Of a DNA stretch of 32,000 nucleotides, positions 488 to 25,373 are shown one piece after another; positions within the stretch are counted from its first letter, which is position 1; each line of letters starts with the position of its first letter. Made by a program: the position numbers and the translations under genes. A model generated the notes under the pieces. It worked only from the letters and a program-made list of their open reading frames with translations. It made no database searches and had not been told where the DNA came from. The stretch is taken from NCBI RefSeq assembly GCF_014197795.1, contig NZ_JACIGI010000007.1:1-32000 (forward strand), read 5' to 3'. The DNA comes from Roseospira goensis (lineage in GTDB: Bacteria > Pseudomonadota > Alphaproteobacteria > Rhodospirillales > Rhodospirillaceae).

Positions 488-3400
488 TTGGTTGCGGTTT
501 CGCATAACACTGATCAAGCGCTTGGGGGCCAGGGGACTGTGGCTGAGCAGAGAGACTTCAAGGACACGCCGGGCCATTCCGATCCAGAAAGCCCGACGCA
601 TTCGGTGGTTCTGCCGCTCAATGATCTGGAGGCGCTGACGATCCTGCACCTCGTCGAGCGCCTCGAAAAGTCTCCCAACCGCAAGGCGATTCGGCCCAAG
701 GCGCACCCGCTTAACGTCGGCTGGGGCGGACGCGCGACGATGACAGGCGCCCAGATTGATGCCCTGGCCGACACCGTCATCCTGGTCGAAATCCCCGACG
801 GAGACCTGGCCCGCCGCATCACGCGGACCGGCCGAACGGTGACGATCGTCGACCACCACATCTATGCCGGTGCGACGGGCGGGCCCATCGACCGCCGTTC
901 CGGGCTGTCATCCCTGGAACAGGTCATGCGCCATCTGGATGTCCGCCCGGAGGAGCTTGAGCCCGATTTCGCGGTTCACTGCCGGGCGGTGGCCGCGAAC
1001 GACCGCGGCTTCATCCCGCACCTGACCAAGGAGCTGGAAGGGCACGACGCTCGGATCGCGGACATCCGCGCCCGGGATCTGACCATTGCCCGCCTCGCGT
1101 CGGACGACGGGGCGGACCTGGATCTCTCGACGTTTGACCCGGCGGTTGCCCCCTGGCGAGCCGAATGCGAAGCGACCCGCACCGCCATCGAAGTGGCCCG
1201 GGGGGCGTTGTGCGAGGCGCTGCGGGCCGGTGAGGCGCGGATGTTGGACACCGGCGGGATACCGACCGGGACGACGCCGCCGCGTCTGCTGCTGGCGCGG
1301 CTGCCGGACACCCACCGATTCGTCATGGCCGACGCCGCCGTCTGGGCCTTCAAGGAAACGGAAGGCCACAAGCTGACAGACCCACTGGAAATGCTGTTGG
1401 TCTTTCATGCCGCCGATGACAAGGCGCGACTCACCCAGATCGAATTCTCCGGCGCGCCGGATCGCGCCGACCAGGTCGCCCAGTGGTTCGATCCCCTGGT
1501 TCGCCGCGCATGGCCGGAGGGGACAGAACGCCTTGTCACCTATGCCGGCGGGATGGGGAACTACTTCGGCGCCCGGGATCCGATCGGCGGGGGGGCCGAG
1601 GCGCTCTCCAAGCTGGTCGATACCCTGCTGGGCGACCTGTTGACCGGCAACCGCCCGGTCACGGCGTGGCGCACCAGTTTCGTCCAGGCGCTGAGCCTCG
1701 GCGACCCGCTGGACAGCAAGGCCCCGGCGAACCCGGAAAACGAGACACCCCAAGAGCGGCCCCCGGCGACGCTCAAGATGCGGATCCTGGACCACTTGTC
1801 GGAGCGGCGCGCGGCGGATCCCGGGTTCGTGACGCCTGTCGCCTTCGAAGCCCAGGAGGCGCATTACTTTCTGCCCCATCTGCGCGATCTGCTGGCATGG
1901 CAGCCGAAAACCGCCCCTGAATCCGGCGAGGCCTGGGAGGCGGCGGGGAACCAGATCAAGGCCGGCCGGGCCTTCATCTCCCTCGCGCTGGCCGCGCCGT
2001 CGCTGTCGTTCACCATCGAATGGCCACGGAACACAGGCAGCAAGACGCCCATCAAGGTGGCCGTGGAGGAGGTGCGGCTTCATTTCGCCTATAACGATGT
2101 CCTGCTGATCGAGTTGACGGTGGGGGAGCAGATCCCGGAGTTCGGCGCGCATTCCGGTCTATGCTGGAAAGACCTGCTGAAGGCATCCCACCCGGCGTTC
2201 CATCGGCCGCTGGGGCAGGTGATGGAGGCCAACGCGAAGCTGCGCTACACCCATTGCGCCATGATACTGGGGGACGACGAGCAAACCGCCATCACCCTTC
2301 ACCACAAGGGCACGGCGCTGGGAACACTGGTTCACGGCAAGCACATCGATCCCGATCCCTTCACCGGCTGGTTCAAGCCGTTCCTGCGAGAGATGCTGGG
2401 CCTGTCGGACGCGGACCTCTGCCAGGATGGCTGCCTGCCGAAAGACAAGCCCCAAGCCCGCCTGTTGTTCGACGACCGCGCCCGCGTCGTCACCTCGGTC
2501 GTGGTGCACGGCGCGCAACCCTGCAGCCCGAAGGGCAAGGCGGACTTCGACGTCATGCTGGCACGGCTGACCACCGTGGACGGCCACGGCACCACGCACA
2601 CCTGCGATCCCGCCGCCGCTGTCAAGGAAGTCGAGGACGGGCGCTACAACCGCTACCGGTCCTGGGGATCCTGGTACACGGCCACCTCGCACAGCTTCGC
2701 TTTCCTCGGCTTCGACGGCTTCTTCCCGCGCGACATCATCCACCGCCTTCACATGCACACCATGTACCGGCGCATGGCCATCCTGGCGCAGGCCAACGTC
2801 GCCATCCTGGGCTCGTTCTCGCTTGAGGTCAGCGACGCCCTGCGGTTCGCGGCCCCGACGGACGCCACGCCGGCGCAACGGAACGAGGCCCTGACCCGCT
2901 ACTACCGTCACCTTCACTGGGTCCAGTTGGAGTTCACCAACCACATCTGGTTCGATCGTGTAACAAGCCAGATCCAGGGCATCGAGCTGTTCGACCTGAT
3001 GAACCGCCGCACCGAATGCCGCCGCGACTATGACCTGGTGCGCGACGAGATCGAGCAGATGCAGGGGGTCCTGACGGCCGAGCAGGACAAGCAGGAAGAC
3101 CGCAACACCAAGGAGGAAGAGCGTCGCGAACGCACCCTGGCGGGCATCGGCCTGCCCTTCGTCCTGCTGTTCGCCTTCCTGGGCAGCCAACAGATCGAGG
3201 CCCACTTCTTTCTCTGGCCGTTGCTGGAATGGGGGACCGAGGCCCTCGGCTTTGACCCGGCCTACACCTGGGTGGTCGCCAGCGTCGCCGGCGCACTCGT
3301 CTCTGCCGTCGTGCTCCTGGCCGTCAGCCCGAAGTTCTTCGAAAACCTGCCCTGGTTCCGCGACAGACTGAAGGACAAGACCGGCGCGCAGGACCGATGG

Positions 3401-3565
3401 CGACGTCGGGCACGCAACGCCATCCTGATCGGAACGTTGGCGACGTTCCTTCTGGGCTATGGCTTGCAGTGGTCGGGCCGGATCATGGTGCAGGAGACTG
3501 AATCGGGCTTAAGCGTTGGGCAGACCGATCCCGGCGCGCCGCCGGCACCGGGGGATGGCGGTTAG
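488..3565 (+). CDS. Large membrane protein: N-terminal DHH/DHHA1-like (NrN-like) phosphoesterase region fused to a CorA-like C-terminal membrane domain; candidate type III CRISPR accessory effector
   Basis: Uninterrupted 1025-aa ORF with a TTG start in the track; the true start is uncertain. N-terminal motifs in DHH-family order and spacing: LPLNDLEA (aa 43-49), VILVEIPD (aa 97-104), TIVDHH (aa 119-124), then AANDRGF and YAGGMGNYFGA (GGGH-like). The C-terminus has a charged helix (EQDKQEDRNTKEEERRER) followed by LAGIGLPFVLLFAFLGSQ. This aligns by eye with the CorA TM1 LP...GMN signature, with GSQ in place of GMN. Two further hydrophobic helices follow. The gene sits beside a type III CRISPR locus. 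Confidence 0.5.
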   Translation: MVAVSHNTDQALGGQGTVAEQRDFKDTPGHSDPESPTHSVVLPLNDLEALTILHLVERLEKSPNRKAIRPKAHPLNVGWGGRATMTGAQIDALADTVILVEIPDGDLARRITRTGRTVTIVDHHIYAGATGGPIDRRSGLSSLEQVMRHLDVRPEELEPDFAVHCRAVAANDRGFIPHLTKELEGHDARIADIRARDLTIARLASDDGADLDLSTFDPAVAPWRAECEATRTAIEVARGALCEALRAGEARMLDTGGIPTGTTPPRLLLARLPDTHRFVMADAAVWAFKETEGHKLTDPLEMLLVFHAADDKARLTQIEFSGAPDRADQVAQWFDPLVRRAWPEGTERLVTYAGGMGNYFGARDPIGGGAEALSKLVDTLLGDLLTGNRPVTAWRTSFVQALSLGDPLDSKAPANPENETPQERPPATLKMRILDHLSERRAADPGFVTPVAFEAQEAHYFLPHLRDLLAWQPKTAPESGEAWEAAGNQIKAGRAFISLALAAPSLSFTIEWPRNTGSKTPIKVAVEEVRLHFAYNDVLLIELTVGEQIPEFGAHSGLCWKDLLKASHPAFHRPLGQVMEANAKLRYTHCAMILGDDEQTAITLHHKGTALGTLVHGKHIDPDPFTGWFKPFLREMLGLSDADLCQDGCLPKDKPQARLLFDDRARVVTSVVVHGAQPCSPKGKADFDVMLARLTTVDGHGTTHTCDPAAAVKEVEDGRYNRYRSWGSWYTATSHSFAFLGFDGFFPRDIIHRLHMHTMYRRMAILAQANVAILGSFSLEVSDALRFAAPTDATPAQRNEALTRYYRHLHWVQLEFTNHIWFDRVTSQIQGIELFDLMNRRTECRRDYDLVRDEIEQMQGVLTAEQDKQEDRNTKEEERRERTLAGIGLPFVLLFAFLGSQQIEAHFFLWPLLEWGTEALGFDPAYTWVVASVAGALVSAVVLLAVSPKFFENLPWFRDRLKDKTGAQDRWRRRARNAILIGTLATFLLGYGLQWSGRIMVQETESGLSVGQTDPGAPPAPGDGG

Positions 3566-3779: not shown

Positions 3780-4314
3780 GGTGACCACCCTTCCGCTTAT
3801 CCACGCGGACTGAAACTTCATCTCCAGCACGCGACCGCGCACGACGTCGGGTGACCACCCTTCCGCTTATCCACGCGGACTGAAACTGATGGGCTCGACG
3901 CGCACGCGCGTCTTCCCCGAGGGTGACCACCCTTCCGCTTATCCACGCGGACTGAAACTACATCCGGCCGCTCGACCAGATCCCCGGAGGGTGACCACCC
4001 TTCCGCTTATCCACGCGGACTGAAACTCGATTGCATTCCGCGACAAGACCATCGTGATGCGGTGACCACCCTTCCGCTTATCCACGCGGACTGAAACTGA
4101 GTGGTGACGTCTTCCCACGCCACCAGGAAATACGGTGACCACCCTTCCGCTTATCCACGCGGACTGAAACCGCCCGCAAGTGCGGAAACGAATTCCTGCT
4201 GCCGGTGACCACCCTTCCGCTTATCCACGCGGACTGAAACATCGTCGGCCAGCCGGCGTCCGCGGCCAGGGCGGGGGGGTGACCACCCTTCCGCTTATCC
4301 ACGCGGACTGAAAC
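3780..4314 (+). CRISPR. CRISPR array 1: 8 identical 37-bp repeats GGTGACCACCCTTCCGCTTATCCACGCGGACTGAAAC, 7 spacers (31-37 nt)
   Basis: Repeats counted directly at 3780, 3850, 3922, 3990, 4061, 4134, 4204 and 4278. Spacers are unique. The repeat ends in ACTGAAAC, a typical type III 8-nt crRNA 5' tag, which gives + strand polarity. Confidence 0.97.
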
Positions 4315-4323
4315 GGCCTGTTC

Positions 4324-4353: not shown

Positions 4354-5454
4354 ATGGAGCAGTTTCAGCGGATGATGAAATCGCCGCATTCGGTGAAAGA
4401 GGTCGAGGCCGAAGCCGCGACCGCGCTCCGCGCTCTCCTCGACGAGGTCGAAGCCGTCGAGGTGGAGGCGGTGGACGGGGAACCGCCCGCAACCGATCCT
4501 GGAATCGACATGGTCGTGCGTCTCACGGCCTGGCACGGCCCGCACGTGCTCGTCTGTGCGATCAAGACGAACGGACAGCCGCGCGAGGTCAGGCTGGGCC
4601 TGCATCGACTTAGCGAAACCGCCGCACGGTTCGGTAACGGCGCGACGCCCGTCTTCATCGCCCCCTACCTCTCGCCGGCGGCGCGGGCACTGTGCCGGAA
4701 CCACGGGGCGGGTTATCTCGACCTGCACGGGAACGCCCGCATCGTCTTCGGCGGCGTGTTCATCGAGCGCCATGTTCCGGGCAAGCCGCCTACGGAGCGG
4801 CGCGCACTCAAATCCCTGTTCCGGCCGAAGTCGGCCCAGGTGCTCCGCATGCTGTTGCGTGACCCCGGGCGGTCATGGCGCGTCGCCGAGCTTGCGGAGG
4901 CCGCCCAAGTCAGCCTCGGCCATGTCAGCAATGTCCGATCGGCCCTGATCAACCGCGCGTGGGCAGAGGTTGCGGACGACGGCCTGCGCCTGTCCAGTCC
5001 CGGCGCCCTGCTCGACGCCTGGCGCGACGCGTATGCCCCCCCGGTGGGGCAGCGAGCCGGCTTCTACACAATCCTGCATGGCAGTGCCTTCGAGGACGCC
5101 GCGCGCAACGCCCTGGCGTCGGCATCGGGGAAGGGACGGGCCGTCTTCGCGTCCTTCTCGGCGGCGCAATGGCTTGCGCCCTATGGCCGGGTCGGAAGCC
5201 AGCAGTTCTACGCGGACTCCGAAGGACTCAAGGTCCTCAAGGCGGGCTTGAGACTGGCGCCCGCGTCGAAGGGGGAGAACGTTTCCGTCACGCTGCCCAA
5301 GGACGAGGGCCCCTTCCTTGATGCCATCGAGCCCGCCCCCGGGATCGTCTGCACGAGCGCGGTGCAGACCTATCTGGATCTGTCCGTCTCGGGCGAGCGC
5401 GGCCGGGAGGCTGCGGACCATCTGCGGCGGGAACTGTTGCGATGGCAGACCTGA
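4354..5454 (+). CDS. Hypothetical HTH-containing protein, AbiEi-like (putative type IV antitoxin/regulator)
   Basis: 366-aa ORF with an ATG start. A central helix-turn-helix-like segment (WRVAELAEAAQVSLGHVSNVRSALINRAW) is present. The ORF overlaps the downstream nucleotidyltransferase-like gene by 13 nt, which suggests translational coupling. The pairing and sizes resemble AbiEi/AbiEii modules. Confidence 0.4.
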   Translation: MEQFQRMMKSPHSVKEVEAEAATALRALLDEVEAVEVEAVDGEPPATDPGIDMVVRLTAWHGPHVLVCAIKTNGQPREVRLGLHRLSETAARFGNGATPVFIAPYLSPAARALCRNHGAGYLDLHGNARIVFGGVFIERHVPGKPPTERRALKSLFRPKSAQVLRMLLRDPGRSWRVAELAEAAQVSLGHVSNVRSALINRAWAEVADDGLRLSSPGALLDAWRDAYAPPVGQRAGFYTILHGSAFEDAARNALASASGKGRAVFASFSAAQWLAPYGRVGSQQFYADSEGLKVLKAGLRLAPASKGENVSVTLPKDEGPFLDAIEPAPGIVCTSAVQTYLDLSVSGERGREAADHLRRELLRWQT

Positions 5455-6290
5455 CGCCCCATTATGACGACCGGGCGACGGGCGCCGTCAAGAGCGTTCC
5501 GGTTGAGATCGCCCAGACGATCGGCAGCTTTCGAGAAAAGTTTGCGGTCATCGGTGGGGCTGTTCCCTGGCTCCGACTTGACAATCCGGACATGCGGCAT
5601 GTCGGCACACTCGATGTGGACCTCGCCCTTCATGCCGAGGCGCTCGGCGACGGCGAATACGCAACGCTGATCGAGGCGTTGAAGAAGAACGGGTATCGCC
5701 AGAGCCAAGACCACCGCCCTTTCCAGCTTGTGCGCCGTGTGCCCGCGCCGGATGGTGGGCCGCCCATAGACGTCGTTGTCAATTTTCTGATGCCTCGCGG
5801 TGTCGATATTGAGCCTCACAAACCCCTGCTCCTTCCCTACTTCAATGTGGTCAGGGCCGACGGCGTCGATCTTGCGCTGCTTTTCAACGATATTGTCATG
5901 GTTGAGGCGTCGATGCCGGACGGCGGGCGAAACCGGGTTGAGGTCGCGGTCTGTACGATCCCGGCGTTGATCGCCATGAAGGGACATGCCCTGCGCGGCC
6001 GGAACGAGCAGAAGGATGCCTATGACGTCTACTACAGCATCCGCAACTATGACGGTGGCCCCGACGCCCTCGCCGTGGCCTGTCGTCCGCTTCTGGAGCA
6101 CGAGAGCGCGCTCAACGGCTACCGCATCGTCGCGGAAAAGTTCGAGACACTGGAAGGATACGGGCCAACCTGTGTCCGGCGATTTGTGGAGGAGACGCAG
6201 GTCCTGGATGACCGCACGCCGGAGCAATGGCAGATGGACGCCTTCGGGCAGGTCGATGCGTGGTGTCGGGCCCTGGGCCTAAGGAATTAG
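5442..6290 (+). CDS. Nucleotidyltransferase-fold protein, AbiEii/AbiGii-like (putative type IV toxin)
   Basis: 282-aa ORF. VIGGAVPWL...HVGTLDVDLAL matches the G[GS]-x(n)-DxD pattern of Pol-beta-type nucleotidyltransferases. The size and the overlap with the upstream HTH gene fit the AbiE family. Confidence 0.5.
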   Translation: MADLTPHYDDRATGAVKSVPVEIAQTIGSFREKFAVIGGAVPWLRLDNPDMRHVGTLDVDLALHAEALGDGEYATLIEALKKNGYRQSQDHRPFQLVRRVPAPDGGPPIDVVVNFLMPRGVDIEPHKPLLLPYFNVVRADGVDLALLFNDIVMVEASMPDGGRNRVEVAVCTIPALIAMKGHALRGRNEQKDAYDVYYSIRNYDGGPDALAVACRPLLEHESALNGYRIVAEKFETLEGYGPTCVRRFVEETQVLDDRTPEQWQMDAFGQVDAWCRALGLRN

Positions 6291-6408
6291 TCGATCCGGC
6301 CATTGGCTCCCGCCAGGATCGCAGATCCTCTCGTGTTTCCACCCCTTGTCTGAACCGGACAGTCGGGCTACCGTCCCTTGATAAGGCTCATGGTTGCATC
6401 CGGGGGGC

Positions 6409-8175
6409 ATGATGGGGACATGGCTGTGTCGCGTCGAGGGCGTGAACTTCAACACAACCGTGTTCGACACCAATGACTTGTCCACGGTGCGCGGTGCGTC
6501 CCTGGGCTTGCTGCACCTTGACCGCGCGGTGACGCAGACCTTTCCGACATGCAAAACGATTTTCTCCGGCGCCTCTCAATGCGCGGTGGTCGTGGAGCGT
6601 GACGGCGACGAGGCGACGGTTACCCAGGCGGTCCGCAAAGAGATCAACGCGGTGCTGAGCGACCGGGCGGCCGTGCGGGAAGGTCTGGACAAGAAGGGCG
6701 AGGCCGCGCCGCCCTTCCCGGCCCTGACGACGGTCATTGATGTCGTACCGGTGGCGGACGAGCGGAAAGAGACGGTCGCCGCCGCGCTCCGCATTGCAGA
6801 GGCCCGCAACCGCTCCCGCCAGTTTCGGCAATGGACCCTTGACCCCCTGGAGGTTTCGACGGACGGGAAGGACGTGGGGGCGTTCGAGCACGGACGCCCC
6901 GGCACCGTCGCGGTTCCTCTACCGAAGGACAAGGGGCGGCCCCGGGTGCTGACGGGCGACGGGGACGACACCCTGACGGACGCCGAGACCGAGACGGCAG
7001 CCCCCAAGAGACTGTCGTTCGCGGTGGCCGCCAAACGCGAATACGGACGGACCGCGCGGCAGAAATTCTATGCCCATGAGCTGGGCTCCGATGCGTTGTT
7101 GACCAAGAACGGCGACCGCCTTGGGTTCGTGGACAGCCTGGAGGACATGCCCCACGCCGACTGGACCAAGGACGCCCTGAAGGCCATGCCGCAGTCCGTG
7201 CGCAACAAGATCGCGGTCGTCTATGCCGACGGCAACGGCTTCGGGGCTATCCGGGAACAGGTGGGGGTCGAGGCGTTCTCAAAGGCCCTTGCCCCCCTGC
7301 GCAAGGCGCTCCTGAAGGCGATCATTACATGGTTCGTCGGCCATGCGCGCGGTGCAAAATACGACGAACTATTCTTGATCGAATCGGAAAAGCGCCATGG
7401 CCGGGTCCGGCGCGGCCTGCGTCTGGAAACACTGATGTGGGGCGGCGACGAACTGCTGTTCGCCATGCCGGCCTGGCTGGCGCTGCCCTTCGTCGCCGGG
7501 CTTCACGCCGCGACCAGGGACTGGACGATCGGCGGCCACGCCCTGACCCAGGCCATTGGCGTGACCATCGCGCACCACAAGACGCCGATCCGCCAACTCA
7601 CCCGCCTCGCCCACGAGGCGGCGGACGGCGCCAAGGCCGCCGACCTGAAGAACCGGACAACGGTTACCGTGGACGTGTTCGAAAGCCTGGCGCCGCCCGA
7701 CGCCGGCAACGGCCTGGACCGCGCCCGCGACCGCCTGTTCGGCGCGCCCGATCCATCCTCGGGCGAGGCCGCGATCGGGGAGACGGAGCGCGCGCGCCTG
7801 CTGGCCATGCCGGGGGATTCGCTGGAGGCGTTCATCGTCGCCCTTGGCTCGGAAAAACAGAAGGACGAAGACAACACCGCGCTGCCCCGCTCCCAAATGT
7901 ACGCGGCCTTGCGCGCCGCCCGCGCGAAGACACCCTGTCTGGCCGACGACAAGGCAGCAGCAGCCGTGCGCGACGCACTCGACACCTACGCCGAGCGCAT
8001 GGGCAAAGGCGGGCTCGATGACGTGTTCCCGGCCAGAAACCGCCCGCCGTCCGTCGCCGAGCGGCCTCTCGGCCTGGAACTCGCGTTGGTCACCGAACTG
8101 TGGGACTACATCCATCCGGGCGGACTGGATATTCCCCCCATGACGGTCACCGGGGACGCGGGGGACAGCGAATGA
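6409..8175 (+). CDS. cas10: Cas10-like type III large subunit, short form without HD domain, GGDE palm motif
   Basis: ATG at 6409 (a second at 6412) lies inside the 6394 TTG ORF. The N-terminus WLCRVEGVNFNTTVFDTNDLSTVRGASLGL resembles the start of the first Cas10 palm domain. The palm/cyclase motifs VVYADGNGFGAI and WGGDELLFAMP are present. No H-D dipeptide motif precedes them. The stop overlaps the next start as ATGA. Confidence 0.8.
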   Translation: MMGTWLCRVEGVNFNTTVFDTNDLSTVRGASLGLLHLDRAVTQTFPTCKTIFSGASQCAVVVERDGDEATVTQAVRKEINAVLSDRAAVREGLDKKGEAAPPFPALTTVIDVVPVADERKETVAAALRIAEARNRSRQFRQWTLDPLEVSTDGKDVGAFEHGRPGTVAVPLPKDKGRPRVLTGDGDDTLTDAETETAAPKRLSFAVAAKREYGRTARQKFYAHELGSDALLTKNGDRLGFVDSLEDMPHADWTKDALKAMPQSVRNKIAVVYADGNGFGAIREQVGVEAFSKALAPLRKALLKAIITWFVGHARGAKYDELFLIESEKRHGRVRRGLRLETLMWGGDELLFAMPAWLALPFVAGLHAATRDWTIGGHALTQAIGVTIAHHKTPIRQLTRLAHEAADGAKAADLKNRTTVTVDVFESLAPPDAGNGLDRARDRLFGAPDPSSGEAAIGETERARLLAMPGDSLEAFIVALGSEKQKDEDNTALPRSQMYAALRAARAKTPCLADDKAAAAVRDALDTYAERMGKGGLDDVFPARNRPPSVAERPLGLELALVTELWDYIHPGGLDIPPMTVTGDAGDSE

Positions 8176-10037
8176 CCCTCGCCCTCATGACCTACACCTG
8201 CAAGGTCGCCGTCCGTTCGCCGTTCCTGTTTCGGGGCCTCGCGGCCGCGCCCTTCGGGGTTGACGCCACCGCGCTGCGCGACGATCAGGGCACGCCGATC
8301 ATCCCCATGGACCAGATCCGGGGCGTGCTGAAGGAAGCCCTGCGCGATCTGCCCGAGAGCGTCGTGCCGGCCCAGGGGCCGCTGTCCATCGACAAGTTGT
8401 TCGGCGTGAAAAGCGAGCGGGAAGACGCGGCCGGTACCGCCAATGAACCCGTCAGGCGCCGCATTCATTTCTCCGACCTCGTGGCCAAGGGGATCCTGCC
8501 CGATCCCACCGAGCCGGATGTGATCGAGGATCTTCCGGCGAACGGCGCCCACCATACCCGCATCGAAATCGACCCCAACAAAGGCACGGTGAAGACAGGC
8601 GCGCTTCAGGTCGTGGAGCTTGTCGCGCCCATGGGCGCCACGGTCCTGTTTTCGGGCACGGTAGAGGTTCTGGCGCCCGCCGCCGATCACGACCGCGTCA
8701 CGGACATGCTGTCCAAGGCCCTGGCGCTGGTCGGCTCCATCGGCGGCCTCAAAAGCCCCGGTTTCGGCGAGGTCGTGGAAGAGGCGACGTGCCTGACCCA
8801 CGAGAGCGGTGCGGTGACGTTGACCGAACCTGTGCCCAGGGACCTCGCCCGCGACCGCCTGCGCCTGAGTGTCACCTTCGACCGGCCGATTCTGGTGAAC
8901 ACGAAGCGATTGGCGGACAATGCCATCGAGAGCGCCCAAGTGATTCCGGGGGCGGTTTTCAAGGGCACGCTGGCCGACCGGCTGACCCATGCCGGCGCGC
9001 AGCCGACCAAGGGATTGCTGGGCGATGTCCTGGCCGTCCTCTCGGTCTCTCACGCTTGGCCGCTGTCCCGCGCGGGCGACCGGCTGTGCCGCCCACTGCC
9101 CCTGTCGCTGGTCGGCGCGGACGCGGACGGAACCCTGACGTTCGGCGATGCCCTCAGCGTACCCGACGGACGGGGCGCCATGATCGGCGGCCGCCCGGCG
9201 TGGTTCGTCGGCGACTGGAAGAGCCCGTGGTTCGAGCCGGGTGCCGAGGCGGCCGGATATCCGACGGCACAGGTCCGTGACCCGGTCGCCCGCACCCACA
9301 CCGAGATCCATTGGGATACCGGGACGGCCGCCGACCACATGCTCTACACCACGCTTCTTCAGCCAGTGCGGGAGATCGACGGCACACCCATCGCGTGGTG
9401 TCTCGACATCGACCTGGGCCAGGTTCCGGAGGGTAATAAGCGGCGGGTTGCCCAGGGCCTGATCGACCTGTTGACCACAGAGGGGTTGTACGGCGTCGGC
9501 GGTACCGGCGCGCGCGCCACTTTCACCGAGGACCCTGGCACCGTTGCGCCACCCCACGCGGCCCCGGTGCATGGAACGACCAACCGGTTCGCGCTGATGC
9601 TGGAAACGCCGGCGGTGCTGTTCGATCCGCGAGACGCGTGGCCGGCGGACGGATCGACCGTGCCGGCGCGAACGGTGTACGAAACGGCATGGGCCAGGCT
9701 GGTGCCCGGCGCCCGGCTGCTCTCGTTTTTCGCGGCGCAAAGCCTGGCCGGCGGGTACATCGCGCGTCGGCGCCGGGCGTACGGCAAGGACTGCTATGTT
9801 CCTTTTGTGCTGACCGATCCGGGCTCGATTTTCCTGATTGAGGTCAAGGACGACGCCGGCCGGGCGGCCCTCGACCAAGCGGTGCGGTTCGGCTTGAAAC
9901 CGGCTGCGTTCGGCACCGAGACGGTGACTTGGCGCACCTGCCCCTACATGCCCGAGAACGGCTACGGACGGGTGTCCACCACCTACCTGTCCCAGGCGAA
10001 TCAGGCCCGGCTTATGGAGGCGGTGACCCATGCCTAG
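8172..10037 (+). CDS. Fused RAMP protein (Cas7-like + second RAMP/Cas5-like + C-terminal region; possible Cas7-Cas5-Cas11 fusion)
   Basis: ATG at 8172 overlaps the cas10 TGA; 621 aa. First RAMP: PIIPMDQIRGVLKEALR, KLFGV, HTRIEIDPNKGTVKTGALQVVELV, G-rich loop GSIGGLKSPGFGEV. Second RAMP: LRLSVTFDRPILVN...IPGAVFKGTLADRL. The domain assignment beyond RAMP is inference. Confidence 0.65.
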   Translation: MTLALMTYTCKVAVRSPFLFRGLAAAPFGVDATALRDDQGTPIIPMDQIRGVLKEALRDLPESVVPAQGPLSIDKLFGVKSEREDAAGTANEPVRRRIHFSDLVAKGILPDPTEPDVIEDLPANGAHHTRIEIDPNKGTVKTGALQVVELVAPMGATVLFSGTVEVLAPAADHDRVTDMLSKALALVGSIGGLKSPGFGEVVEEATCLTHESGAVTLTEPVPRDLARDRLRLSVTFDRPILVNTKRLADNAIESAQVIPGAVFKGTLADRLTHAGAQPTKGLLGDVLAVLSVSHAWPLSRAGDRLCRPLPLSLVGADADGTLTFGDALSVPDGRGAMIGGRPAWFVGDWKSPWFEPGAEAAGYPTAQVRDPVARTHTEIHWDTGTAADHMLYTTLLQPVREIDGTPIAWCLDIDLGQVPEGNKRRVAQGLIDLLTTEGLYGVGGTGARATFTEDPGTVAPPHAAPVHGTTNRFALMLETPAVLFDPRDAWPADGSTVPARTVYETAWARLVPGARLLSFFAAQSLAGGYIARRRRAYGKDCYVPFVLTDPGSIFLIEVKDDAGRAALDQAVRFGLKPAAFGTETVTWRTCPYMPENGYGRVSTTYLSQANQARLMEAVTHA

Positions 10038-11424
10038 GCTGCGCTACGACATCAAAGGCACCCTGGAGACCCTGGCACCGCTGCATGTCGGAACAGGCGA
10101 ATGGCGCAAGGTGGCGACGGTCAAGGGCAAGGACGGCGCCAACACCCGACCCGACGTCGCGGCCCTGATGCGGGACGCGACCGGAACGCCGATGCTGCCG
10201 TCCACCACGCTCAAGGGGATGCTGCGCGGGTTGGCCGCCTCCCTTGGGAACAAGATTGCCAAACTCGACGCGGATGCCTTGATGGGAGAGATCAAGGGCA
10301 CCGCCGAGGAGGATGAAAAGGGCCGGCCGTTGCCTCGGGGCAGCATGGGCCTGCTGACCGTGTTCTGCGCCCCACGCACCGACGCGGTGCCGGACGCAAG
10401 CGCGATGCCCTTCGCCGATGCGCGCCCGATTGCCCAAGAAGGCCTGGGGGACGGCGTGTTCGTCGCCGCGCGCACCAGGATTGACGGGGCCAGCGGCACC
10501 GCCTCCGACGCGACCCTGTTCTTCCAGGAGATGGTCGCCAAGGGCACCCGCTTCGCGTTCCGTTGCCGGATCGAGGCCCGGGCGGGGCGGATCGACAAGG
10601 CCGAACAGGCCCTGGAAACGCTCAAGGTCCTGCTGGCCGCGTTGACGGCGGACGAAGGCGTGCCCCTGGGCAAGGGCCAGGCGGACGGCCTGGGGCGGGT
10701 CCGGTTGCGTCCGCAAACCCTGTCCGTGACGCGGCGAACCGTGGCCGACGACGGCACGTTCACCAAGACGCCGGTTGAGGATTTCGCCCTGCCGGAAGTG
10801 ATCGCGCCGCCCGAGGTGGACCGCATCCCCATCCGCCTGCGCTGCGACGGTCCGTTCGCCGTGATCGACGCCTCCCACAAGCGGGAGCGCGGTCGGCATG
10901 AGGGGGAAGAAGAGACACCGCATCTGAGTGCGCAGCGTGAAACCGAAGCCTTGCCTCTTCTGCTCGGCACGGGCGTTTCGGGAGCCCTGCGGGCGCGCGC
11001 GGCGTGGCTGTGGGCCCGCGACGCAGCGACCATCCGGGCGGCCGCAGGGGAGACCGAGGGACCGGTTCTGGACGACACAACGGTTGGACCGAAGGATCCC
11101 GTGGAGCGGCTGTTCGGACGGACGGGATTCCGTGGTCTGCTCTCCCTATCCGGAATGACCATTGCGGCGGATGCGCCCCTGAACCTTACGTCCGTGCGGA
11201 TTGATCGCTTCTCCGGCGCGCCGGTGGACAATGCCCTGTTCACGACAGCCGCGTTTATTGGGGTCGATCTGAGCTTCACGCTAACGCTCGGAGGCAGCGC
11301 CACGACGATAGACAGAGCGCTATTCAATGCTCTGTGCAGGGACATCAAGGCCACGGGCCTCATGCTGGGCCACGGCACAAACAAGGGCTTCGGCTGGTTC
11401 GACTGGACGGAGGACGCGGCATGA
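10030..11424 (+). CDS. Double Cas7 (Csm3/Cmr4-like) fusion protein
   Basis: 464 aa; the start overlaps the upstream gene by 8 nt. Two RAMP modules are visible. The first has LETLAPLHVGTGE...PMLPSTTLKGMLRG. The second has LLLGTGVSGALRARAAW...ERLFGRTGF...SVRIDRFSGAPVDNALFTTAAF and ends in the G-rich GHGTNKGFGWF. Confidence 0.7.
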   Translation: MPRLRYDIKGTLETLAPLHVGTGEWRKVATVKGKDGANTRPDVAALMRDATGTPMLPSTTLKGMLRGLAASLGNKIAKLDADALMGEIKGTAEEDEKGRPLPRGSMGLLTVFCAPRTDAVPDASAMPFADARPIAQEGLGDGVFVAARTRIDGASGTASDATLFFQEMVAKGTRFAFRCRIEARAGRIDKAEQALETLKVLLAALTADEGVPLGKGQADGLGRVRLRPQTLSVTRRTVADDGTFTKTPVEDFALPEVIAPPEVDRIPIRLRCDGPFAVIDASHKRERGRHEGEEETPHLSAQRETEALPLLLGTGVSGALRARAAWLWARDAATIRAAAGETEGPVLDDTTVGPKDPVERLFGRTGFRGLLSLSGMTIAADAPLNLTSVRIDRFSGAPVDNALFTTAAFIGVDLSFTLTLGGSATTIDRALFNALCRDIKATGLMLGHGTNKGFGWFDWTEDAA

Positions 11425-13796
11425 CCCTATCGCCCGACCTGATCGAAAAGGCCGTCGCCCTTCTTGAAACGTTTTCCAACATGCCGTCCCTTGAAGACGC
11501 CATGGATCACCTGTCGGAAGCGTACGAGCTGTCCGAGGCGGATCTTGAGGAGCTTGCCCGGCGGGCGATTTCCAGGCTCTCGGCGCCCCAACAGGCGAGG
11601 CCAGCCAGAAGCGGTCACCGCGAACGGCGCACCCTGAACGCCGACGTCGGCGCCCCCTTCCGGTTCGTGACCCTGAACGACATCGTCGCCCCCCGGGACA
11701 CCGACGCCGGCGCCCTCGATAAACCGATTCCCGGTGGCCTGTCCGCCCATATCGAGGTCCAGTGGATCGCCGAAACGCCCTTGCTGATCGGGGTCAAGAA
11801 TGCCCGGGGAATCACGGAGCCCATGACCCTTGGACCGGACGGACCACCGGTGATCCCCGGCGCCAGCCTGCGGGGGATGGTGCGGGCGGCCACGGAAATC
11901 GTTGCCATGGCACGCCTGGGCAGTGCCAACCTGCACCACAAATACGGTCTGCGTGACTTCGAGCACCCGACCTATGGCCAGGACCTTCCCGTGTCCGACG
12001 TTGATCAAGTCAAGGCCGGCTGGTTGACGTTGCGGTGGGACAACGACGTTGCGAGGAAAACCCCTGAAAACGCTTCCTGGGAAATCGCCTCTATTGGGCA
12101 CGAATGGTCCCATATTCCGGTGGATGATCTCGGAGCCGTCGTCGGGTCCGCCTTCACGGACAGAGCGAACTGGATTCAGACGTCACTTGAGGAAAAATAC
12201 GACCATCTCGGCATGACCCGTTCCCACGGCCATGACACTCTTTTTGACTTTGACAGGACCGTTTCTGTTTCCCATCCCCGCAAGGAAGAGACCGGCAATC
12301 GCCGCATGGTGCATCCGGGCGGTCCGGTCGAGGGCGTGGTCGTCTGTTCCGACAAGCTGCCCGGCAGCGGCGGCAACAAGAAGCTTGAATACGTGTTTCA
12401 CGGCCGCCCTGAGCCGGGCGTTGCTCTGAGCCCAGAGGTCGTGGAGACCTTCCTTCGCCTGTCCTGCAAGCCGTCGCGCAACAAGCCGGAACCGGACGGC
12501 TCGTTCAAGAAACTCCTGCCGACGTTGATGCGGGGGCATCGCGTTCCGGTCTTTTTCGTCGGCGATCTGAACCGGCAGGACGATAGCTTCTTCTTCGGGC
12601 TGACCCGTCTGTTCAAGGTTCCGCACAGATACAGTGTGGGCGACATTCTGGCCCGCCAGAAGGCCCACACCGAAGGTCGCGTGAACAAACGGGACGGCAC
12701 GGTCGTGGCCTACAATGCCGATTTCGTCGAGCACCTGTTCGGGTACGTCGTGGAGCGCGAGGACCTGGGCCTTGACGAAACCGACCGCATCGACCCCAAC
12801 CTCGCCGGCCGCAAGGGGCGCGTCGCGTTTTCCTTCGCCACGCTGGAGCCGGGGCAGACCCATCGCCTATCCGGCGAGGTGAGAGCGGCCATGATGGCGC
12901 CGCGCGCCTCCTTCGCGCCCTTCTATCTGCGCGGTCAGGCCGAACTCGACTACAGTTATCCCAATGACGTCCGCCTGGCGGGTCGCAAGCGGTATCTACC
13001 CCGGTTTCCGGAGGGGCGCACGCAGGAGGCCATGGCCGCCATAGAGGGCATGGCGGATCGCCAAAGAGCGCAGATTCAGGGCGCACGGAGCTCCGAGATC
13101 TTCTCCAAGATGCGCTTCCTGGTGCCCGGCCCGGGGCGAACCGACCTGCGGTTCCGCAGCCGAATCCGGATGCACAACGTGACGGCGGCGGAACTGGGGG
13201 CGGTTCTGTTCGCGCTGACGCACGGCGGCGATCGGTCGAAACCCTGTCGCCACATGCTGGGTCATGCCCGCCCATTCGGAGCCGGACAGATTCGCGTTGG
13301 CCGCGTCCGCCTCGTCGTCGACCCCAACGACGCCGACGCGGCGAAACACTGCTGTGAACCAGCCGGCCCGGACGACCTGATGTCCGAGGACGGCAGGACC
13401 GGCTTCTGCCCCCCGCATACGGATCAACGCCCCAGTCACGCTCTCCGGCCTTTTCTGGCCGCTTTCACGGCCTTCATGCGCCGGTCGAGGGCATCGAACG
13501 GGGCGGGCGTGCCCCGTTTCCCGGACGTTCCGGAAATCCGAGAGTTCGTTGGGGCCAGCATGCCGGAGGTGACGGCGCGGATCGGTCAGGCGCCCCTGGA
13601 TTACATGCGTTTGACATCGTTCAATGCCATCCGGAAGGCGACGAAGCCCCGCGAGGACCAGACGCGCCCGGCGGCCATCACCCCGGCTAATGGCGCGGCG
13701 CCGGTCCCGAGCGTGCGCGACCGTTTGCTTCCGGCGCCGCCGGCGGAGGTGCCGGCCGTGCCGACAAGTCCCAAGGGCGTTTCGACGAAGGGGTGA
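11421..13796 (+). CDS. Large Cas7-family RAMP protein with long insertion and N-terminal helical extension
   Basis: ATG at 11421 overlaps the upstream TGA (ATGA); 791 aa. RAMP hallmarks: HIEVQWIAETPLLIG, PVIPGASLRGMVRAATE, HLFGYV, GRKGRVAFSFATLE, MMAPRASFAPFYL, G-rich MLGHARPFGAGQIRV. A large insertion separates these motifs. Confidence 0.65.
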   Translation: MTLSPDLIEKAVALLETFSNMPSLEDAMDHLSEAYELSEADLEELARRAISRLSAPQQARPARSGHRERRTLNADVGAPFRFVTLNDIVAPRDTDAGALDKPIPGGLSAHIEVQWIAETPLLIGVKNARGITEPMTLGPDGPPVIPGASLRGMVRAATEIVAMARLGSANLHHKYGLRDFEHPTYGQDLPVSDVDQVKAGWLTLRWDNDVARKTPENASWEIASIGHEWSHIPVDDLGAVVGSAFTDRANWIQTSLEEKYDHLGMTRSHGHDTLFDFDRTVSVSHPRKEETGNRRMVHPGGPVEGVVVCSDKLPGSGGNKKLEYVFHGRPEPGVALSPEVVETFLRLSCKPSRNKPEPDGSFKKLLPTLMRGHRVPVFFVGDLNRQDDSFFFGLTRLFKVPHRYSVGDILARQKAHTEGRVNKRDGTVVAYNADFVEHLFGYVVEREDLGLDETDRIDPNLAGRKGRVAFSFATLEPGQTHRLSGEVRAAMMAPRASFAPFYLRGQAELDYSYPNDVRLAGRKRYLPRFPEGRTQEAMAAIEGMADRQRAQIQGARSSEIFSKMRFLVPGPGRTDLRFRSRIRMHNVTAAELGAVLFALTHGGDRSKPCRHMLGHARPFGAGQIRVGRVRLVVDPNDADAAKHCCEPAGPDDLMSEDGRTGFCPPHTDQRPSHALRPFLAAFTAFMRRSRASNGAGVPRFPDVPEIREFVGASMPEVTARIGQAPLDYMRLTSFNAIRKATKPREDQTRPAAITPANGAAPVPSVRDRLLPAPPAEVPAVPTSPKGVSTKG

Positions 13797-16118: not shown

Positions 16119-16430
16119 TCACAGCAGCCAGAAGTCCTGGTCCTCGGCCAGCGGCGTGCCGGTGCCGTGCACGGCGCAATGCGGTCGGCCGTCGGCCGAT
16201 ACCGCATAGACGCGCAAGGAATCCCCGCCCTCCAGGTGAACCGCCGCCTCCCGCGCCAGCCGGTCGGCACGCGACGGCGTCATGCGGGCCTCGAACACGC
16301 TCTTCTGCACCCGCGTGGCGTGGTCCTCCAGCACCGCCGCCACCCGCCGCCGCGCCGCCGCGCGGGCGATGTCGTAGCAGAACACCATCAGCATCTCGGT
16401 GCGGCTCACCGTCCCGTCCTCCCGGCCCAT
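16119..16430 (-). CDS. cas2: Cas2
   Basis: MLMVFCYDI...RRRVAAVLEDHATRVQKSVFE is the classic Cas2 N-terminal beta-strand/ferredoxin pattern. The gene lies directly downstream of RT-cas1, whose stop is at 16438-16440. The start is ambiguous: ATG at 16430 (103 aa) or at 16394 (91 aa, beginning MLMVFCYDI). Confidence 0.85.
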   Translation of the reverse strand: MGREDGTVSRTEMLMVFCYDIARAAARRRVAAVLEDHATRVQKSVFEARMTPSRADRLAREAAVHLEGGDSLRVYAVSADGRPHCAVHGTGTPLAEDQDFWLL

Positions 16431-16437
16431 GCCACGC

Positions 16438-21886: not shown

Positions 21887-22051
21887 CCTCTGATCTCCGG
21901 CTCTGGGTAACAGCTGGGTAACGCGCGACACGATATCGTGTGTTACCCAGCGATGCTATCTTGCCATATCGGAGGGCATCATGACTATGAAAAACAAGCA
22001 TTTTATGGCGGCAAAATGCTATGACATGAGACCCCTGGATATGGGTCTACC

Positions 22052-23080: not shown

Positions 23081-23137
23081 GGGACGGGTCTCGCGACGAA
23101 GGAACGGGAACGGGAACGGGAGCAGCGGCCCCGCGTC

Positions 23138-24537: not shown

Positions 24538-24541
24538 GGCG

Positions 24542-25368: not shown

Positions 25369-25373
25369 CGGGC

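What the first reader, a model, noticed from the sequence alone, without database searches (positions are those of the whole stretch)
488..3565. Candidate NrN(DHH)-CorA-like fusion membrane effector next to a type III CRISPR locus that has no CARF or SAVED gene
Seen in sequence:
- A 1025-aa ORF carries DHH-family motifs in the correct order and spacing: LPLNDLEA, VILVEIPD, TIVDHH, NDRGF, and a GGGH-like YAGGMGNYFGA.
- A ~600-aa region follows and ends in a charged stalk helix.
- After the stalk comes LAGIGLPFVLLFAFLGSQ, which lines up with the CorA TM1 LP...GMN signature (GSQ instead of GMN).
- Two more hydrophobic helices follow.

Established knowledge: CorA-family membrane proteins and NrN DHH phosphodiesterases are recurrent accessory genes of type III-B CRISPR systems. 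In Bacteroides fragilis, Cas10 makes SAM-AMP, which activates CorA, and NrN degrades the signal.

Inference: this gene may be signal receptor, membrane effector and off-switch in one polypeptide. It would be coupled to a differently organised effector (fused multi-Cas7, III-D-variant-like) and to RT-Cas1. The Cas10 here has no HD nuclease and no other second-messenger receptor is visible, so this gene is the best candidate for the immune output.
Basis: partly seen in the sequence, partly recalled or inferred. Interest (0 to 1): 0.85.

Follow-up and report, generated by a model that had tools for sequence, protein, structure and literature searches.

The report
NrN–CorA fusion effector, type III CRISPR
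This gene encodes a membrane protein of the CRISPR-associated CorA family fused to an NrN-type signal-degrading enzyme; it is very probably the immune output of the neighbouring type III-D2-like CRISPR system, but this kind of fusion and its signalling pathway are already described, so it is a well-supported annotation rather than a discovery.

Summary
ORF 488–3565 (probable start GTG 539) encodes about 1008–1025 aa.

- **N-terminal domain (aa ~39–388).** It is an expanded NrN-type DHH phosphodiesterase. Its motifs NDLE, VE, DHH, SSLEQ, NDR and GG..FGA are invariant in 11 homologs. The domain profile hits only PDB NrN. The AF2 model (pLDDT 86) matches RecJ/Cdc45.
- **C-terminal part (aa ~450–1000).** It belongs to the CRISPR-associated CorA-like family (PADLOC, E = 8e-41), with a stalk helix and two to three TM helices. 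"GSQ" sits where distant homologs keep CorA's GMN.
- **The locus.** It is a complete type III-D2-like system: an HD-less GGDE Cas10, Cas7-5, Cas7, a TIGR03986 RAMP, Cas6, RT-Cas1/Cas2 and 40 repeats. No CARF or SAVED gene was found. Homologs sit next to the same cas module in 7 of 9 informative loci.

DHH–CorA fusions were reported in 2018 and 2023. SAM-AMP, CorA and NrN were characterised in 2023. CorA as the III-D2 effector was shown in 2026. The fusion is also common: 99 of 155 family representatives have it.

Calling NrN an "off-switch" needs a caveat, because published work found NrN activity to be required for immunity.

Verdict: a new member of a known kind, of modest interest. Ligand identity, channel activity and hydrolysis are inferred here, not shown.

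The parts
488..3565 (+). nrn–corA fusion gene (1025 aa from TTG 488; probable start GTG 539, giving 1008 aa)
   Evidence: ORF list and translation. Identical 1008-aa database protein P0001. Candidate start codons.
593..1702 (+). N-terminal NrN-type DHH phosphodiesterase domain (aa 36–405). Motifs: NDLE at 620–631, VE at 785–790, DHH at 851–859, SSLEQ at 908–922, ND at 998–1003, GG..FGA at 1541–1573
   Evidence: Profile A2 hits only PDB NrN 9lq9 (E = 2.4e-4). AF2 pLDDT 86, pTM 0.87. Foldseek finds RecJ/Cdc45 (E = 3e-5, probability 1.0). Motifs are invariant. jackhmmer started from the L017 stand-alone NrN-like protein gives 197 bits over aa 39–388. Weak PADLOC hits to C3a116 and DHH_CorA.
1703..1834 (+). 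Poorly conserved Pro/Glu-rich linker (aa 406–449)
   Evidence: Gappy, variable columns in alignment A1. pLDDT below 50 at the end of the N-domain model.
1835..3133 (+). CorA-like cytoplasmic α/β domain, the presumed ligand sensor (aa ~450–845), followed by the charged stalk helix (aa ~845–882)
   Evidence: PADLOC CorA-like PDLC01174 (E = 8e-41, aa 453–921) and PDLC01043 (E = 7e-31, aa 658–941). AF2 secondary structure. Conserved YFLPHLRDL, FDDRARV and FTNHIWF blocks.
3134..3190 (+). TM1 (aa 883–901), ending in GSQ (nt 3182–3190) at the position of CorA's GMN
   Evidence: Hydropathy. Aligned GMN in P0009, P0010 and P0016, and (Y/F)FGMNF in other fusions. Those fusions hit Pfam CorA PF01544.
3263..3328 (+). 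TM2 (aa 926–947)
   Evidence: Strongest hydrophobic segment, Kyte–Doolittle 2.47. AF2 helix.
3416..3481 (+). Possible TM3 (aa 977–998). It follows an Arg/Lys-rich loop and is specific to the close clade
   Evidence: Moderate hydropathy here, but above threshold in P0003 and P0005–P0007. Absent in distant homologs.
3780..4318 (+). CRISPR array 1 (8 repeats; repeat GGTGACCACCCTTCCGCTTATCCACGCGGACTGAAAC)
4354..6290 (+). AbiEi (4354–5454) and AbiEii (5442–6290) toxin–antitoxin module, inserted between the effector gene and cas10
   Evidence: Pfam AbiEi_2 (E = 5.6e-6) and AbiEii (E = 5.4e-5). Absent at this position in R. trueperi (L007).
6394..8175 (+). cas10 (593 aa, no HD domain, GGDE Palm2 motif, N-terminal RVEGVN motif)
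   Evidence: PADLOC Cas10 (E = 3e-42). Its only PDB relative is the III-D2 Cas10 9wxh_B (E = 3.5e-16). The SAM-site residues E8, N11, S29 and L33 align with E15, N18, S36 and L40.
8100..10037 (+). cas7-cas5 fusion (Cas7-5, 645 aa)
   Evidence: 9wxh_C at E = 1.6e-33 over the full length. Catalytic D29 corresponds to D55, and W351 aligns with Tyr. PADLOC Csm3/Csx10.
10030..13796 (+). cas7 (10030–11424, 464 aa) and the TIGR03986 multi-Cas7 RAMP (11334–13796, 820 aa)
   Evidence: Pfam RAMPs (E = 3e-23). NCBIfam TIGR03986 at 167.6 bits, above the cut-off of 161. PADLOC Cas7_IIId.
14081..15659 (+). CRISPR array 2 (22 repeats)
16119..18618 (-). cas2 (16119–16484) and RT-cas1 (16438–18618)
   Evidence: Pfam Cas2 (E = 1.6e-14). 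Pfam RVT_1 (E = 1.6e-37) plus Cas_Cas1 (E = 2.5e-63).
18711..19387 (+). CRISPR array 3 (10 repeats)
19527..20534 (+). cas6
   Evidence: PADLOC Cas6 (E = 2.6e-28) and Pfam CRISPR_Cas6.

Best explanation
**What it is.** The gene encodes a single-polypeptide NrN–CorA ancillary effector of a type III-D2-like CRISPR-Cas system.

**Proposed mechanism**
1. The crRNA-guided complex (Cas10, Cas7-5, Cas7, TIGR03986 RAMP) binds a complementary foreign transcript.
2. The HD-less GGDE Cas10 conjugates SAM and ATP into SAM-AMP, and possibly SAM-AMP2.
3. The signal binds the cytoplasmic α/β domain (aa ~450–845) of the CorA-like protein, which is presumably a pentamer.
4. Its C-terminal stalk/TM module perturbs the membrane and arrests growth.
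5. The N-terminal NrN-type DHH phosphodiesterase (aa ~39–388), tethered 1:1 to the effector, hydrolyses the 3'–5' phosphodiester of the signal. That limits or resets the response, or enables it in some way not yet understood.

**Shown here:** the domain homologies, conservation of the active-site motifs, membrane topology features, completeness of the locus, and gene-neighbourhood conservation.

**Inferred from published work on homologous systems:** the identity of the signal, ligand binding by the CorA domain, the membrane effect, and hydrolysis by the NrN domain.
For: **CorA-like part**
- PADLOC CorA-like, E = 8e-41.
- A stalk helix and two to three C-terminal TM helices.
- GMN at the aligned position in distant homologs.
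- GMN-type fusions from the same family hit Pfam CorA PF01544, best 27.3 bits against a cut-off of 27.

**NrN part**
- The profile hits only PDB NrN 9lq9.
- A stand-alone family member matches NrN across DHH, SxLEQ and NDK.
- The fold is DHH/DHHA1-like, matching RecJ and Cdc45.
- Catalytic motifs are kept in about 90% of 134 relatives.
- A CorA-adjacent stand-alone NrN-like protein aligns end to end with aa 39–388.

**Signal generator**
- The only PDB relatives of this Cas10 and Cas7-5 are the SAM-AMP/SAM-AMP2-producing III-D2 complex chains 9wxh_B and 9wxh_C.
- The GGDE motif and the N-terminal SAM-site residues are conserved.

**Context**
- 7 of 9 informative homolog loci carry the same four-gene effector module.
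- No CARF or SAVED gene, or other effector, is detectable in the window.

**Literature**
- PMC10600005: SAM-AMP activates CorA, NrN degrades it, and fusions exist.
- PMC13294483: III-D2 makes SAM-AMP and SAM-AMP2 and needs CorA.
- PMC12255297: degradation of the signal is required for immunity.
Against: - No biochemical data exist for this protein or its clade.
- The protein itself has no Pfam CorA or DHH hit.
- The CorA-part model has only medium confidence (pLDDT 66), and its match to T. maritima CorA is not significant (E = 0.047, TM ≤ 0.17).
- The GMN selectivity motif is replaced by GSQ, and most fusions have lost it. Ion-channel function is therefore uncertain.
- Cas10 is only about 25–30% identical to the characterised III-D2 enzyme. 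One SAM-site residue (Q186) could not be aligned.
- The effector module has an extra separate Cas7 gene compared with the published III-D2 system.
- Three related loci have CorA without any detectable NrN, so a cis or adjacent NrN is not obligatory in this Cas10 clade.
Confidence: 0.72

Rival explanations
1. The architecture is the same, but the signal differs. This Cas10 makes a cyclic or linear oligoadenylate rather than SAM-AMP. That molecule activates the CorA-like part, and the DHH domain acts as an oligoadenylate or pApA-type phosphodiesterase.
For: A CorA clade in Actinomyces has been proposed to respond to cA6 (PMC11229360). The closest structural relatives of NrN are pGpG/pApA phosphodiesterases (PMC10600005). 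This Cas10 shares only about 25–30% identity with the characterised III-D2 enzyme.
Against: The only PDB relative of this Cas10 is the III-D2 enzyme, which makes no cOA. [quoted passage not shown] NrN-type enzymes are the published markers of SAM-AMP-type CorA loci. No Csm6-2 or CARF gene is present.
Confidence: 0.12
2. The N-terminal DHH-like domain is not a catalytic off-switch. It is the ligand-sensing or regulatory module of the effector: either a pseudo-enzyme, or an enzyme whose turnover gates the membrane domain.
For: NrN or lyase activity is required for CorA-mediated immunity, for unexplained reasons (PMC12255297). The 1:1 fusion is the dominant architecture, found in 99 of 155 representatives.
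Against: All putative metal-binding and catalytic residues are conserved, which argues against a pseudo-enzyme. Unfused CorA homologs without any NrN exist in the same Cas10 clade. A chemically unrelated lyase can replace NrN, which argues against a specific structural role for NrN.
Confidence: 0.1
3. The gene is a passenger, unrelated to CRISPR immunity. The real output of the locus would then be the AbiEi/AbiEii module or RNA cleavage by the complex alone.
For: A TA module is essential in the published III-D2 system. AbiEi/AbiEii lies between this gene and cas10.
Against: The gene is conserved next to the cas module in 7 of 9 informative loci across proteins only 25–82% identical, whereas AbiE is absent from the closest relative. 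In the published III-D2 system, CorA and not the TA module mediates growth arrest.
Confidence: 0.04

Closest known systems
Bacteroides fragilis type III-B CorA plus stand-alone NrN (SAM-AMP signalling; Chi et al. 2023, PMC10600005; NrN structures PDB 9lq9–9lqc)
   Same: It pairs a CRISPR-associated CorA-like membrane effector with an NrN-type DHH phosphodiesterase. The NrN-specific motifs (H/N-DLE, DHH, SxLEQ, ND(K/R)xxIP) are shared. The Cas10 has a Palm/GGD(D/E) signalling site.
   Different: Here the two proteins are one polypeptide. The NrN part is expanded to about 350 aa, against 260 aa. The cas module is III-D2-like rather than III-B. The published III-D2 and III-B CorAs share only about 15% identity.
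Published DHH/NrN–CorA fusions: Beggiatoa sp. PS EDN71418.1 (Shmakov et al. 2018, bioRxiv 10.1101/270033) and Aliarcobacter butzleri (Chi et al. 2023)
   Same: The domain order and concept are the same: DHH at the N-terminus and CorA at the C-terminus, in a type III locus. My family census shows this architecture in 99 of 155 representatives.
   Different: The published examples are described in type III-B loci. This clade sits in III-D2-like loci with RT-Cas1, has GSQ instead of GMN, and has a probable third TM helix. I could not retrieve the published sequences to measure identity.
Type III-D2 system of Gammaproteobacteria bacterium HyVt-522 (Nat Commun 2026, PMC13294483; PDB 9WXH)
   Same: An HD-less GGDE Cas10 and a Cas7-5 fusion are the only PDB relatives of the proteins here. 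CorA is the growth-arrest effector. A TA module is present in the locus.
   Different: That system has a single Cas7x3 protein, whereas this locus has Cas7 plus a TIGR03986 RAMP. Its TA module is VapBC-like and is proposed to be the signal degrader. Here the TA module is AbiEi/AbiEii, is not conserved, and an NrN domain is fused to CorA. Whether the HyVt-522 CorA has an NrN domain could not be determined here.
Self-limiting cOA effectors such as Csm6/Csx1, whose CARF domains degrade their own activator, and ring-nuclease fusions. This is a functional analogy drawn from my own knowledge, not tested here.
   Same: The sensor/effector and the signal-degrading activity lie on one polypeptide, giving a built-in timer.
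   Different: The folds and the ligand are unrelated: CARF and cOA there, DHH and SAM-AMP here.

Membership tests
NrN-type CRISPR-associated DHH phosphodiesterase | Sequence similarity to characterised NrN | tested here: met
   Profile A2 against the PDB finds only NrN 9lq9/a/c (E = 2.4e-4). Stand-alone family member P0113 matches NrN at E = 4e-6 across DHH, SxLEQ and NDK. jackhmmer started from a CorA-adjacent NrN-like protein gives 197 bits over aa 39–388. The direct PADLOC DHH_CorA hit is weak (E = 4.8e-3).
NrN-type CRISPR-associated DHH phosphodiesterase | Two-lobed DHH/DHHA1-type fold | tested here: met
   AF2 pLDDT 86, pTM 0.87. Foldseek top hits are RecJ, archaeal RecJ and Cdc45 (E = 3e-5 to 6e-3, probability ≥ 0.98). 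TM-scores are only 0.38–0.48, which I attribute to differences in lobe orientation and to insertions; that explanation is an inference.
NrN-type CRISPR-associated DHH phosphodiesterase | Catalytic and metal-binding motifs, including DHH and the Asp that depositors mutated in 9lqc | tested here: met
   D46, E48, E101, D122-H123-H124 and N171-D172 are invariant in 11 homologs and kept in about 90% of 134 relatives. D172 aligns with the Asp that is replaced by Ala in 9lqc.
NrN-type CRISPR-associated DHH phosphodiesterase | Match to the canonical Pfam DHH (PF01368) or DHHA1 models | tested here: not met
   No Pfam hit for this protein. PF01368 appears at E = 0.18 in 1 of 11 members. The family is too divergent for the generic model.
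NrN-type CRISPR-associated DHH phosphodiesterase | Hydrolysis of SAM-AMP to SAM and AMP | not testable with these tools
   Requires biochemistry.
CRISPR-associated CorA-like effector | Match to CRISPR-associated CorA profiles | tested here: met
   PADLOC PDLC01174 (E = 8e-41, aa 453–921 against profile positions 49–413 of 446) and PDLC01043 (E = 7e-31).
CRISPR-associated CorA-like effector | Large cytoplasmic domain, a long stalk helix and two C-terminal TM helices | tested here: met
   Hydropathy gives TM1 at 883–901 and TM2 at 926–947, with a possible TM3. AF2 shows an α/β domain, then a 55-residue helix, then TM helices.
CRISPR-associated CorA-like effector | Genomic association with type III cas10 | tested here: met
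   cas10 lies within 3 kb in the window. 7 of 9 informative homolog loci carry the cas10/cas7 module. In the reverse direction, 4 of 4 Cas10-homolog loci encode a CorA-like protein.
CRISPR-associated CorA-like effector | Activation by SAM-AMP and membrane disruption | not testable with these tools
   Inferred from PMC10600005 and PMC13294483 only.
Canonical CorA Mg2+ channel (Pfam PF01544) | Match to PF01544 | tested here: not met
   This protein and its 10 closest homologs have no hit, even at E ≤ 10. The link is only transitive: 7 of 10 GMN-type fusions from the same family hit PF01544, best 27.3 bits against a cut-off of 27.
Canonical CorA Mg2+ channel (Pfam PF01544) | GMN signature at the end of TM1 | tested here: not met
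   This protein has GSQ (aa 899–901). GMN is retained in only 11 of 95 fusions.
Canonical CorA Mg2+ channel (Pfam PF01544) | Pentameric funnel fold | tested here: inconclusive
Type III-D2 CRISPR-Cas | HD-less Cas10 with a GGDE motif, plus a Cas7-Cas5 fusion related to the characterised complex | tested here: met
   9wxh_B at E = 3.5e-16 and 9wxh_C at E = 1.6e-33 over the full length. These are the only PDB hits.
Type III-D2 CRISPR-Cas | A single Cas7x3 fusion as the only other backbone subunit | tested here: not met
   This locus has two genes: a 464-aa Cas7 and an 820-aa TIGR03986 RAMP. The RAMP's only PDB relative is the III-Dv chain 8s9t_E, at E = 5.6e-5. For that reason I call the locus 'III-D2-like'.

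The most novel reading that the evidence does not exclude
The covalent 1:1 tethering of NrN to CorA is the dominant architecture in this family. It could mean that hydrolysis of the signal is mechanistically coupled to gating, so that the effector works as a turnover-driven membrane device rather than as a channel with a separate off-switch. That would explain the published but unexplained requirement for SAM-AMP degradation in CorA immunity. In III-D2-like systems the expanded NrN domain might also convert SAM-AMP2 into SAM-AMP, tuning a two-messenger response.
Probability: 0.12. Interest if true: 0.7.

Novelty: new member of a known kind. Interest (0 to 1): 0.3.

Why it matters
The finding gives a confident functional annotation to a family that public databases label "hypothetical protein", for example in Rhodospira trueperi, Roseospira navarrensis, Roseospirillum parvum and Desulfarculus baarsii.

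It also shows that within one Cas10 clade of III-D2-like systems, CorA occurs in three forms:
- fused to NrN;
- next to a stand-alone NrN;
- with no detectable NrN.

That natural variation is useful material for two open questions in SAM-AMP signalling:
- why signal degradation is required for CorA-mediated immunity;
- what degrades the signal in III-D2 systems, where a TA module has been proposed.

The finding does not reveal a new kind of system.

Tried and rejected
- **Conserved upstream partner gene.** The 153-aa ORF at 46–507 is unrelated to the 154-aa ORF upstream of the R. parvum homolog. Rejected.
- **Direct PDB sequence searches.** The whole protein and the CorA-part profile gave nothing meaningful.
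- **Pfam and NCBIfam on the target.** No hits.
- **Is the published HyVt-522 III-D2 CorA fused to NrN?** No supplements are held for that paper. The Cas10 homolog search did not identify that organism by name. Unresolved.
- **A correction to my own work.** I first concluded that the unfused-CorA loci have no NrN within ±10 kb, using my N-domain HMM. That was wrong for L017, where PADLOC identified an adjacent stand-alone NrN-like gene. A jackhmmer-broadened search confirmed absence only for L018–L020.
- **Word-indexed homolog search with the CorA-part profile.** It added almost nothing.
- **Genome-contig scan.** It returned only 7 loci because the peptide patterns were narrow.
- **Rfam and tRNA scans of the window.** Nothing found.

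Full report
**1. The observation**

The ORF at 488–3565 (+) is real and encodes 1025 aa from TTG 488. An identical database protein of 1008 aa starts at GTG 539, and sequence conservation begins near aa 36.

In an alignment of 11 homologs down to 27% identity, these residues are invariant: N45, D46, E48, E101, D122, H123, H124, S141, S142, E144, Q145, N171, D172, G354 and G355. The core residues tested in the wider set (N45, D46, E48, E101, D122, H123, H124, S141, E144, Q145, N171, D172) are retained in about 85–95% of 95 fusion proteins and 39 stand-alone relatives; S142, G354 and G355 are kept less often in the fusions (65–77%), and the stand-alone proteins are mostly unaligned at the GG motif. 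This is not a chance pattern.

Hydropathy gives two clear C-terminal TM helices, at aa 883–901 and 926–947. A weaker third lies at about aa 977–998 and follows an Arg/Lys-rich loop. TM1 ends in G899-S900-Q901.

**2. The N-terminal domain**

Generic libraries do not recognise it: Pfam and NCBIfam give no hit. PADLOC gives only weak hits, to C3a116 (E = 1.8e-4) and DHH_CorA (E = 4.8e-3). More specific tests are clear.

- A profile of aa 36–405 searched against all PDB sequences finds only NrN (9lq9, 9lqa, 9lqc; E = 2.4e-4). The shared segments are H/N-DLE and SxLEQV…AAND(K/R)xxIP. The Asp that depositors mutated in 9lqc aligns with D172.
- A stand-alone 265-aa member of the same family matches NrN across "IDHH", SxLEQ and NDK (E = 4e-6).
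- The AlphaFold2 model is confident (pLDDT 86, pTM 0.87). Its best structural matches are RecJ, archaeal RecJ and Cdc45, which are DHH-superfamily two-lobed proteins (E down to 3e-5, probability 1.0).
- A 268-aa NrN-like protein lies immediately next to an unfused CorA in Pleomorphomonas (PADLOC C3a116 2.8e-57, DHH_CorA 1.7e-29). After jackhmmer iteration it aligns end to end with aa 39–388 of the window protein (197 bits).

The N-terminal region is therefore one expanded NrN, with helical insertions. It is not NrN plus an extra domain.

**3. The C-terminal part**

- PADLOC's CRISPR-associated "CorA-like" profiles match strongly: PDLC01174 at E = 8e-41 over aa 453–921, and PDLC01043 at E = 7e-31.
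- The AF2 model has only medium confidence (pLDDT 66). It shows an α/β domain, a ~55-residue helix running into TM1, and further TM helices.
- T. maritima CorA is the top Foldseek hit but is not significant (E = 0.047, TM ≤ 0.17). More sensitive structure libraries were unavailable.
- Neither this protein nor its 10 nearest homologs hit Pfam CorA.

The connection to canonical CorA is transitive but solid. Distant homologs P0009, P0010 and P0016 have GMN exactly where this protein has GSQ. Other fusions in the family carry the textbook (Y/F)FGMNF motif. Seven of ten of those have PF01544 as their top Pfam hit over the stalk–TM1–GMN–TM2 region, the best at 27.3 bits against a cut-off of 27. They also score 95–154 bits against this protein's own CorA-part profile.

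Only 11 of 95 fusions keep GMN. GSQ is specific to the Rhodospirillales-like clade, with 8 representatives. Mg²⁺-channel selectivity should therefore not be assumed.

**4. The locus**

The window holds a complete type III system.

| Feature | Coordinates | Evidence |
|---|---|---|
| nrn–corA | 488–3565 | |
| CRISPR array 1 (8 repeats) | 3780–4318 | |
| AbiEi / AbiEii | 4354–6290 | |
| Cas10 (593 aa) | 6394–8175 | |
| Cas7-5 | 8100–10037 | |
| Cas7 | 10030–11424 | |
| TIGR03986 multi-Cas7 | 11334–13796 | |
| CRISPR array 2 (22 repeats) | 14081–15659 | |
| Cas2 and RT-Cas1 (minus strand) | 16119–18618 | |
| CRISPR array 3 (10 repeats) | 18711–19387 | |
| Cas6 | 19527–20534 | |
| Integrase | 20603–21931 | |

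No CARF, SAVED or other known effector profile matched any ORF.

The only PDB relatives of Cas10 and Cas7-5 are chains B and C of 9WXH (E = 3.5e-16 and 1.6e-33). 9WXH is the type III-D2 complex shown in 2026 to make SAM-AMP and SAM-AMP2 and to need CorA for growth arrest (PMC13294483).

- Cas10 here has GGDE ("WGGDELLF") and "YADGNGFG".
- Its N-terminal "RVEGVN…S…L" aligns with E8, N11, S29 and L33, which contact SAM in that structure.
- It begins directly with Palm1, so it has no HD domain.
- The Cas7-5 catalytic Asp is conserved (D55).
- W351, which is linked to SAM-AMP2 synthesis, aligns with a Tyr.

The backbone differs from the published III-D2 system in having Cas7 plus a TIGR03986 RAMP instead of one Cas7x3 protein. 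I therefore call the locus III-D2-like.

**5. Conservation of the neighbourhood**

Seven of nine homolog loci with at least 5 kb of flank carry the same module: a Cas10 of about 550–590 aa plus three RAMP fusions, often with RT-Cas1/Cas2. These homologs are 25–82% identical to the window protein. The seven loci are:
- a Deltaproteobacteria MAG;
- Roseospirillum parvum;
- Rhodospira trueperi;
- Defluviicoccus;
- three metagenome contigs.

The other two loci have the gene at a contig end and are uninformative.

AbiEi/AbiEii is absent in R. trueperi, where cas10 follows the gene after 840 nt. The TA module is therefore not a conserved component here.

Starting from Cas10 homologs instead, four of four loci encode an unfused CorA-like protein of 565–706 aa. 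One has an adjacent stand-alone NrN-like gene. Three have no detectable NrN within ±10 kb. My first, narrower search had wrongly suggested four of four without NrN, and I corrected that.

**6. How common is the fusion?**

An exhaustive search of 1.84 billion representatives with the N-domain profile found 416 relatives at E ≤ 1e-3. Of the 155 sequences examined, 99 combine the N-domain with the CorA-like part. About 40 are stand-alone proteins of 190–320 aa.

**7. Comparison with the literature**

- DHH–CorA adjacency and fusion in type III loci were reported in 2018, for example Beggiatoa EDN71418.1 (bioRxiv 10.1101/270033).
- Chi et al. 2023 showed that Cas10 makes SAM-AMP, that SAM-AMP binds CorA, and that NrN degrades SAM-AMP. 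They also noted nrn–corA fusions in A. butzleri (PMC10600005).
- The 2025 lyase paper stresses that degradation of SAM-AMP is required for immunity, for reasons still unknown (PMC12255297).
- The 2026 paper established CorA as the type III-D2 effector and proposed the TA module as the degrader.

It describes a known kind of protein.

**8. Mechanism, confidence and verdict**

The most likely mechanism has four steps:
1. Target RNA activates Cas10.
2. Cas10 makes SAM-AMP, with or without SAM-AMP2.
3. The signal binds the cytoplasmic domain of the CorA-like multimer, which perturbs the membrane and arrests growth.
4. The tethered NrN domain hydrolyses the signal.

The domain identities and the genomic linkage are shown here. 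The chemistry and physiology are inferred from homologous systems. My confidence is about 0.9 for the identity and about 0.7 for the full mechanism.

Features specific to this clade are GSQ in place of GMN, a probable third TM helix, the expanded NrN domain, and the III-D2-like/RT-Cas1 context.

Novelty: a new member of a known kind. Interest: modest, about 0.3. The main value is as comparative material on why CorA systems need a signal-degrading enzyme.

Noticed in passing
window 25374–25856: An 82-bp unit is repeated 5.9 times in tandem at 95% identity. Each unit folds into two perfect 10-bp GC-rich hairpins (MFE −52.8 kcal/mol, z = −3.7). There is no Rfam match. It lies directly beside dxs (25883–28063, minus strand). 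Its function is unknown.
   Followed up: partly
window 4354–6290: An AbiEi/AbiEii (type IV TA / abortive-infection) pair sits between CRISPR array 1 and cas10. The published III-D2 system also carries an essential TA module, but of the VapBC type. This AbiE pair is missing at the same position in the closest relative, R. trueperi (L007), so it looks like a recent insertion.
   Followed up: partly
window 3780–4318, 14081–15659, 18711–19387: Three CRISPR arrays (8, 22 and 10 repeats) are all on the plus strand and end in ACTGAAAC. Each has its own repeat variant: GGTGACCACCC…, …CTTATCC… and …CTTGACC….
   Followed up: no
window 20603–21931 (minus strand): A tyrosine integrase (Arm-DNA-binding plus Phage_integrase domains) flanks cas6, which suggests the CRISPR locus lies on an integrated island. 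No tRNA gene is present in the window. L017 and L020 also have integrases near their loci.
   Followed up: no
L018:17624–21393: Next to an intact unfused CorA-like gene (642 aa) lies a second CorA-like gene split into two ORFs. The 361-aa ORF matches the N-terminal half of the profile and the 234-aa ORF matches the C-terminal half. This could be a disrupted tandem duplicate or a two-part CorA.
   Followed up: no
L017:245–3928: In Pleomorphomonas sp., an unfused CorA (706 aa), a stand-alone NrN-like gene (268 aa) and a 241-aa CARF/PD-DExK-like fragment lie in a row next to a Cas3 gene. That places a possible cOA-type effector remnant beside a SAM-AMP-type module.
   Followed up: no
L018, L019, L020 (±10 kb around cas10): These III-D2-like loci have an unfused CorA but no detectable NrN, and none of their scanned or annotated neighbours matched another signal-degrading enzyme. 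The published view is that CorA always comes with a signal-degrading enzyme. An unrecognised degrader may be present, or it may lie further away.
   Followed up: partly
window 30341–30462: A 30-bp unit is repeated 4.1 times in tandem at 97% identity, inside or overlapping the ABC-ATPase ORF (30323–31351, minus strand).
   Followed up: no
window 21981–25370: About 3.4 kb with long ORFs on both strands has no Pfam or PADLOC match. The content between the integrase and the tandem repeat is unassigned.
   Followed up: no
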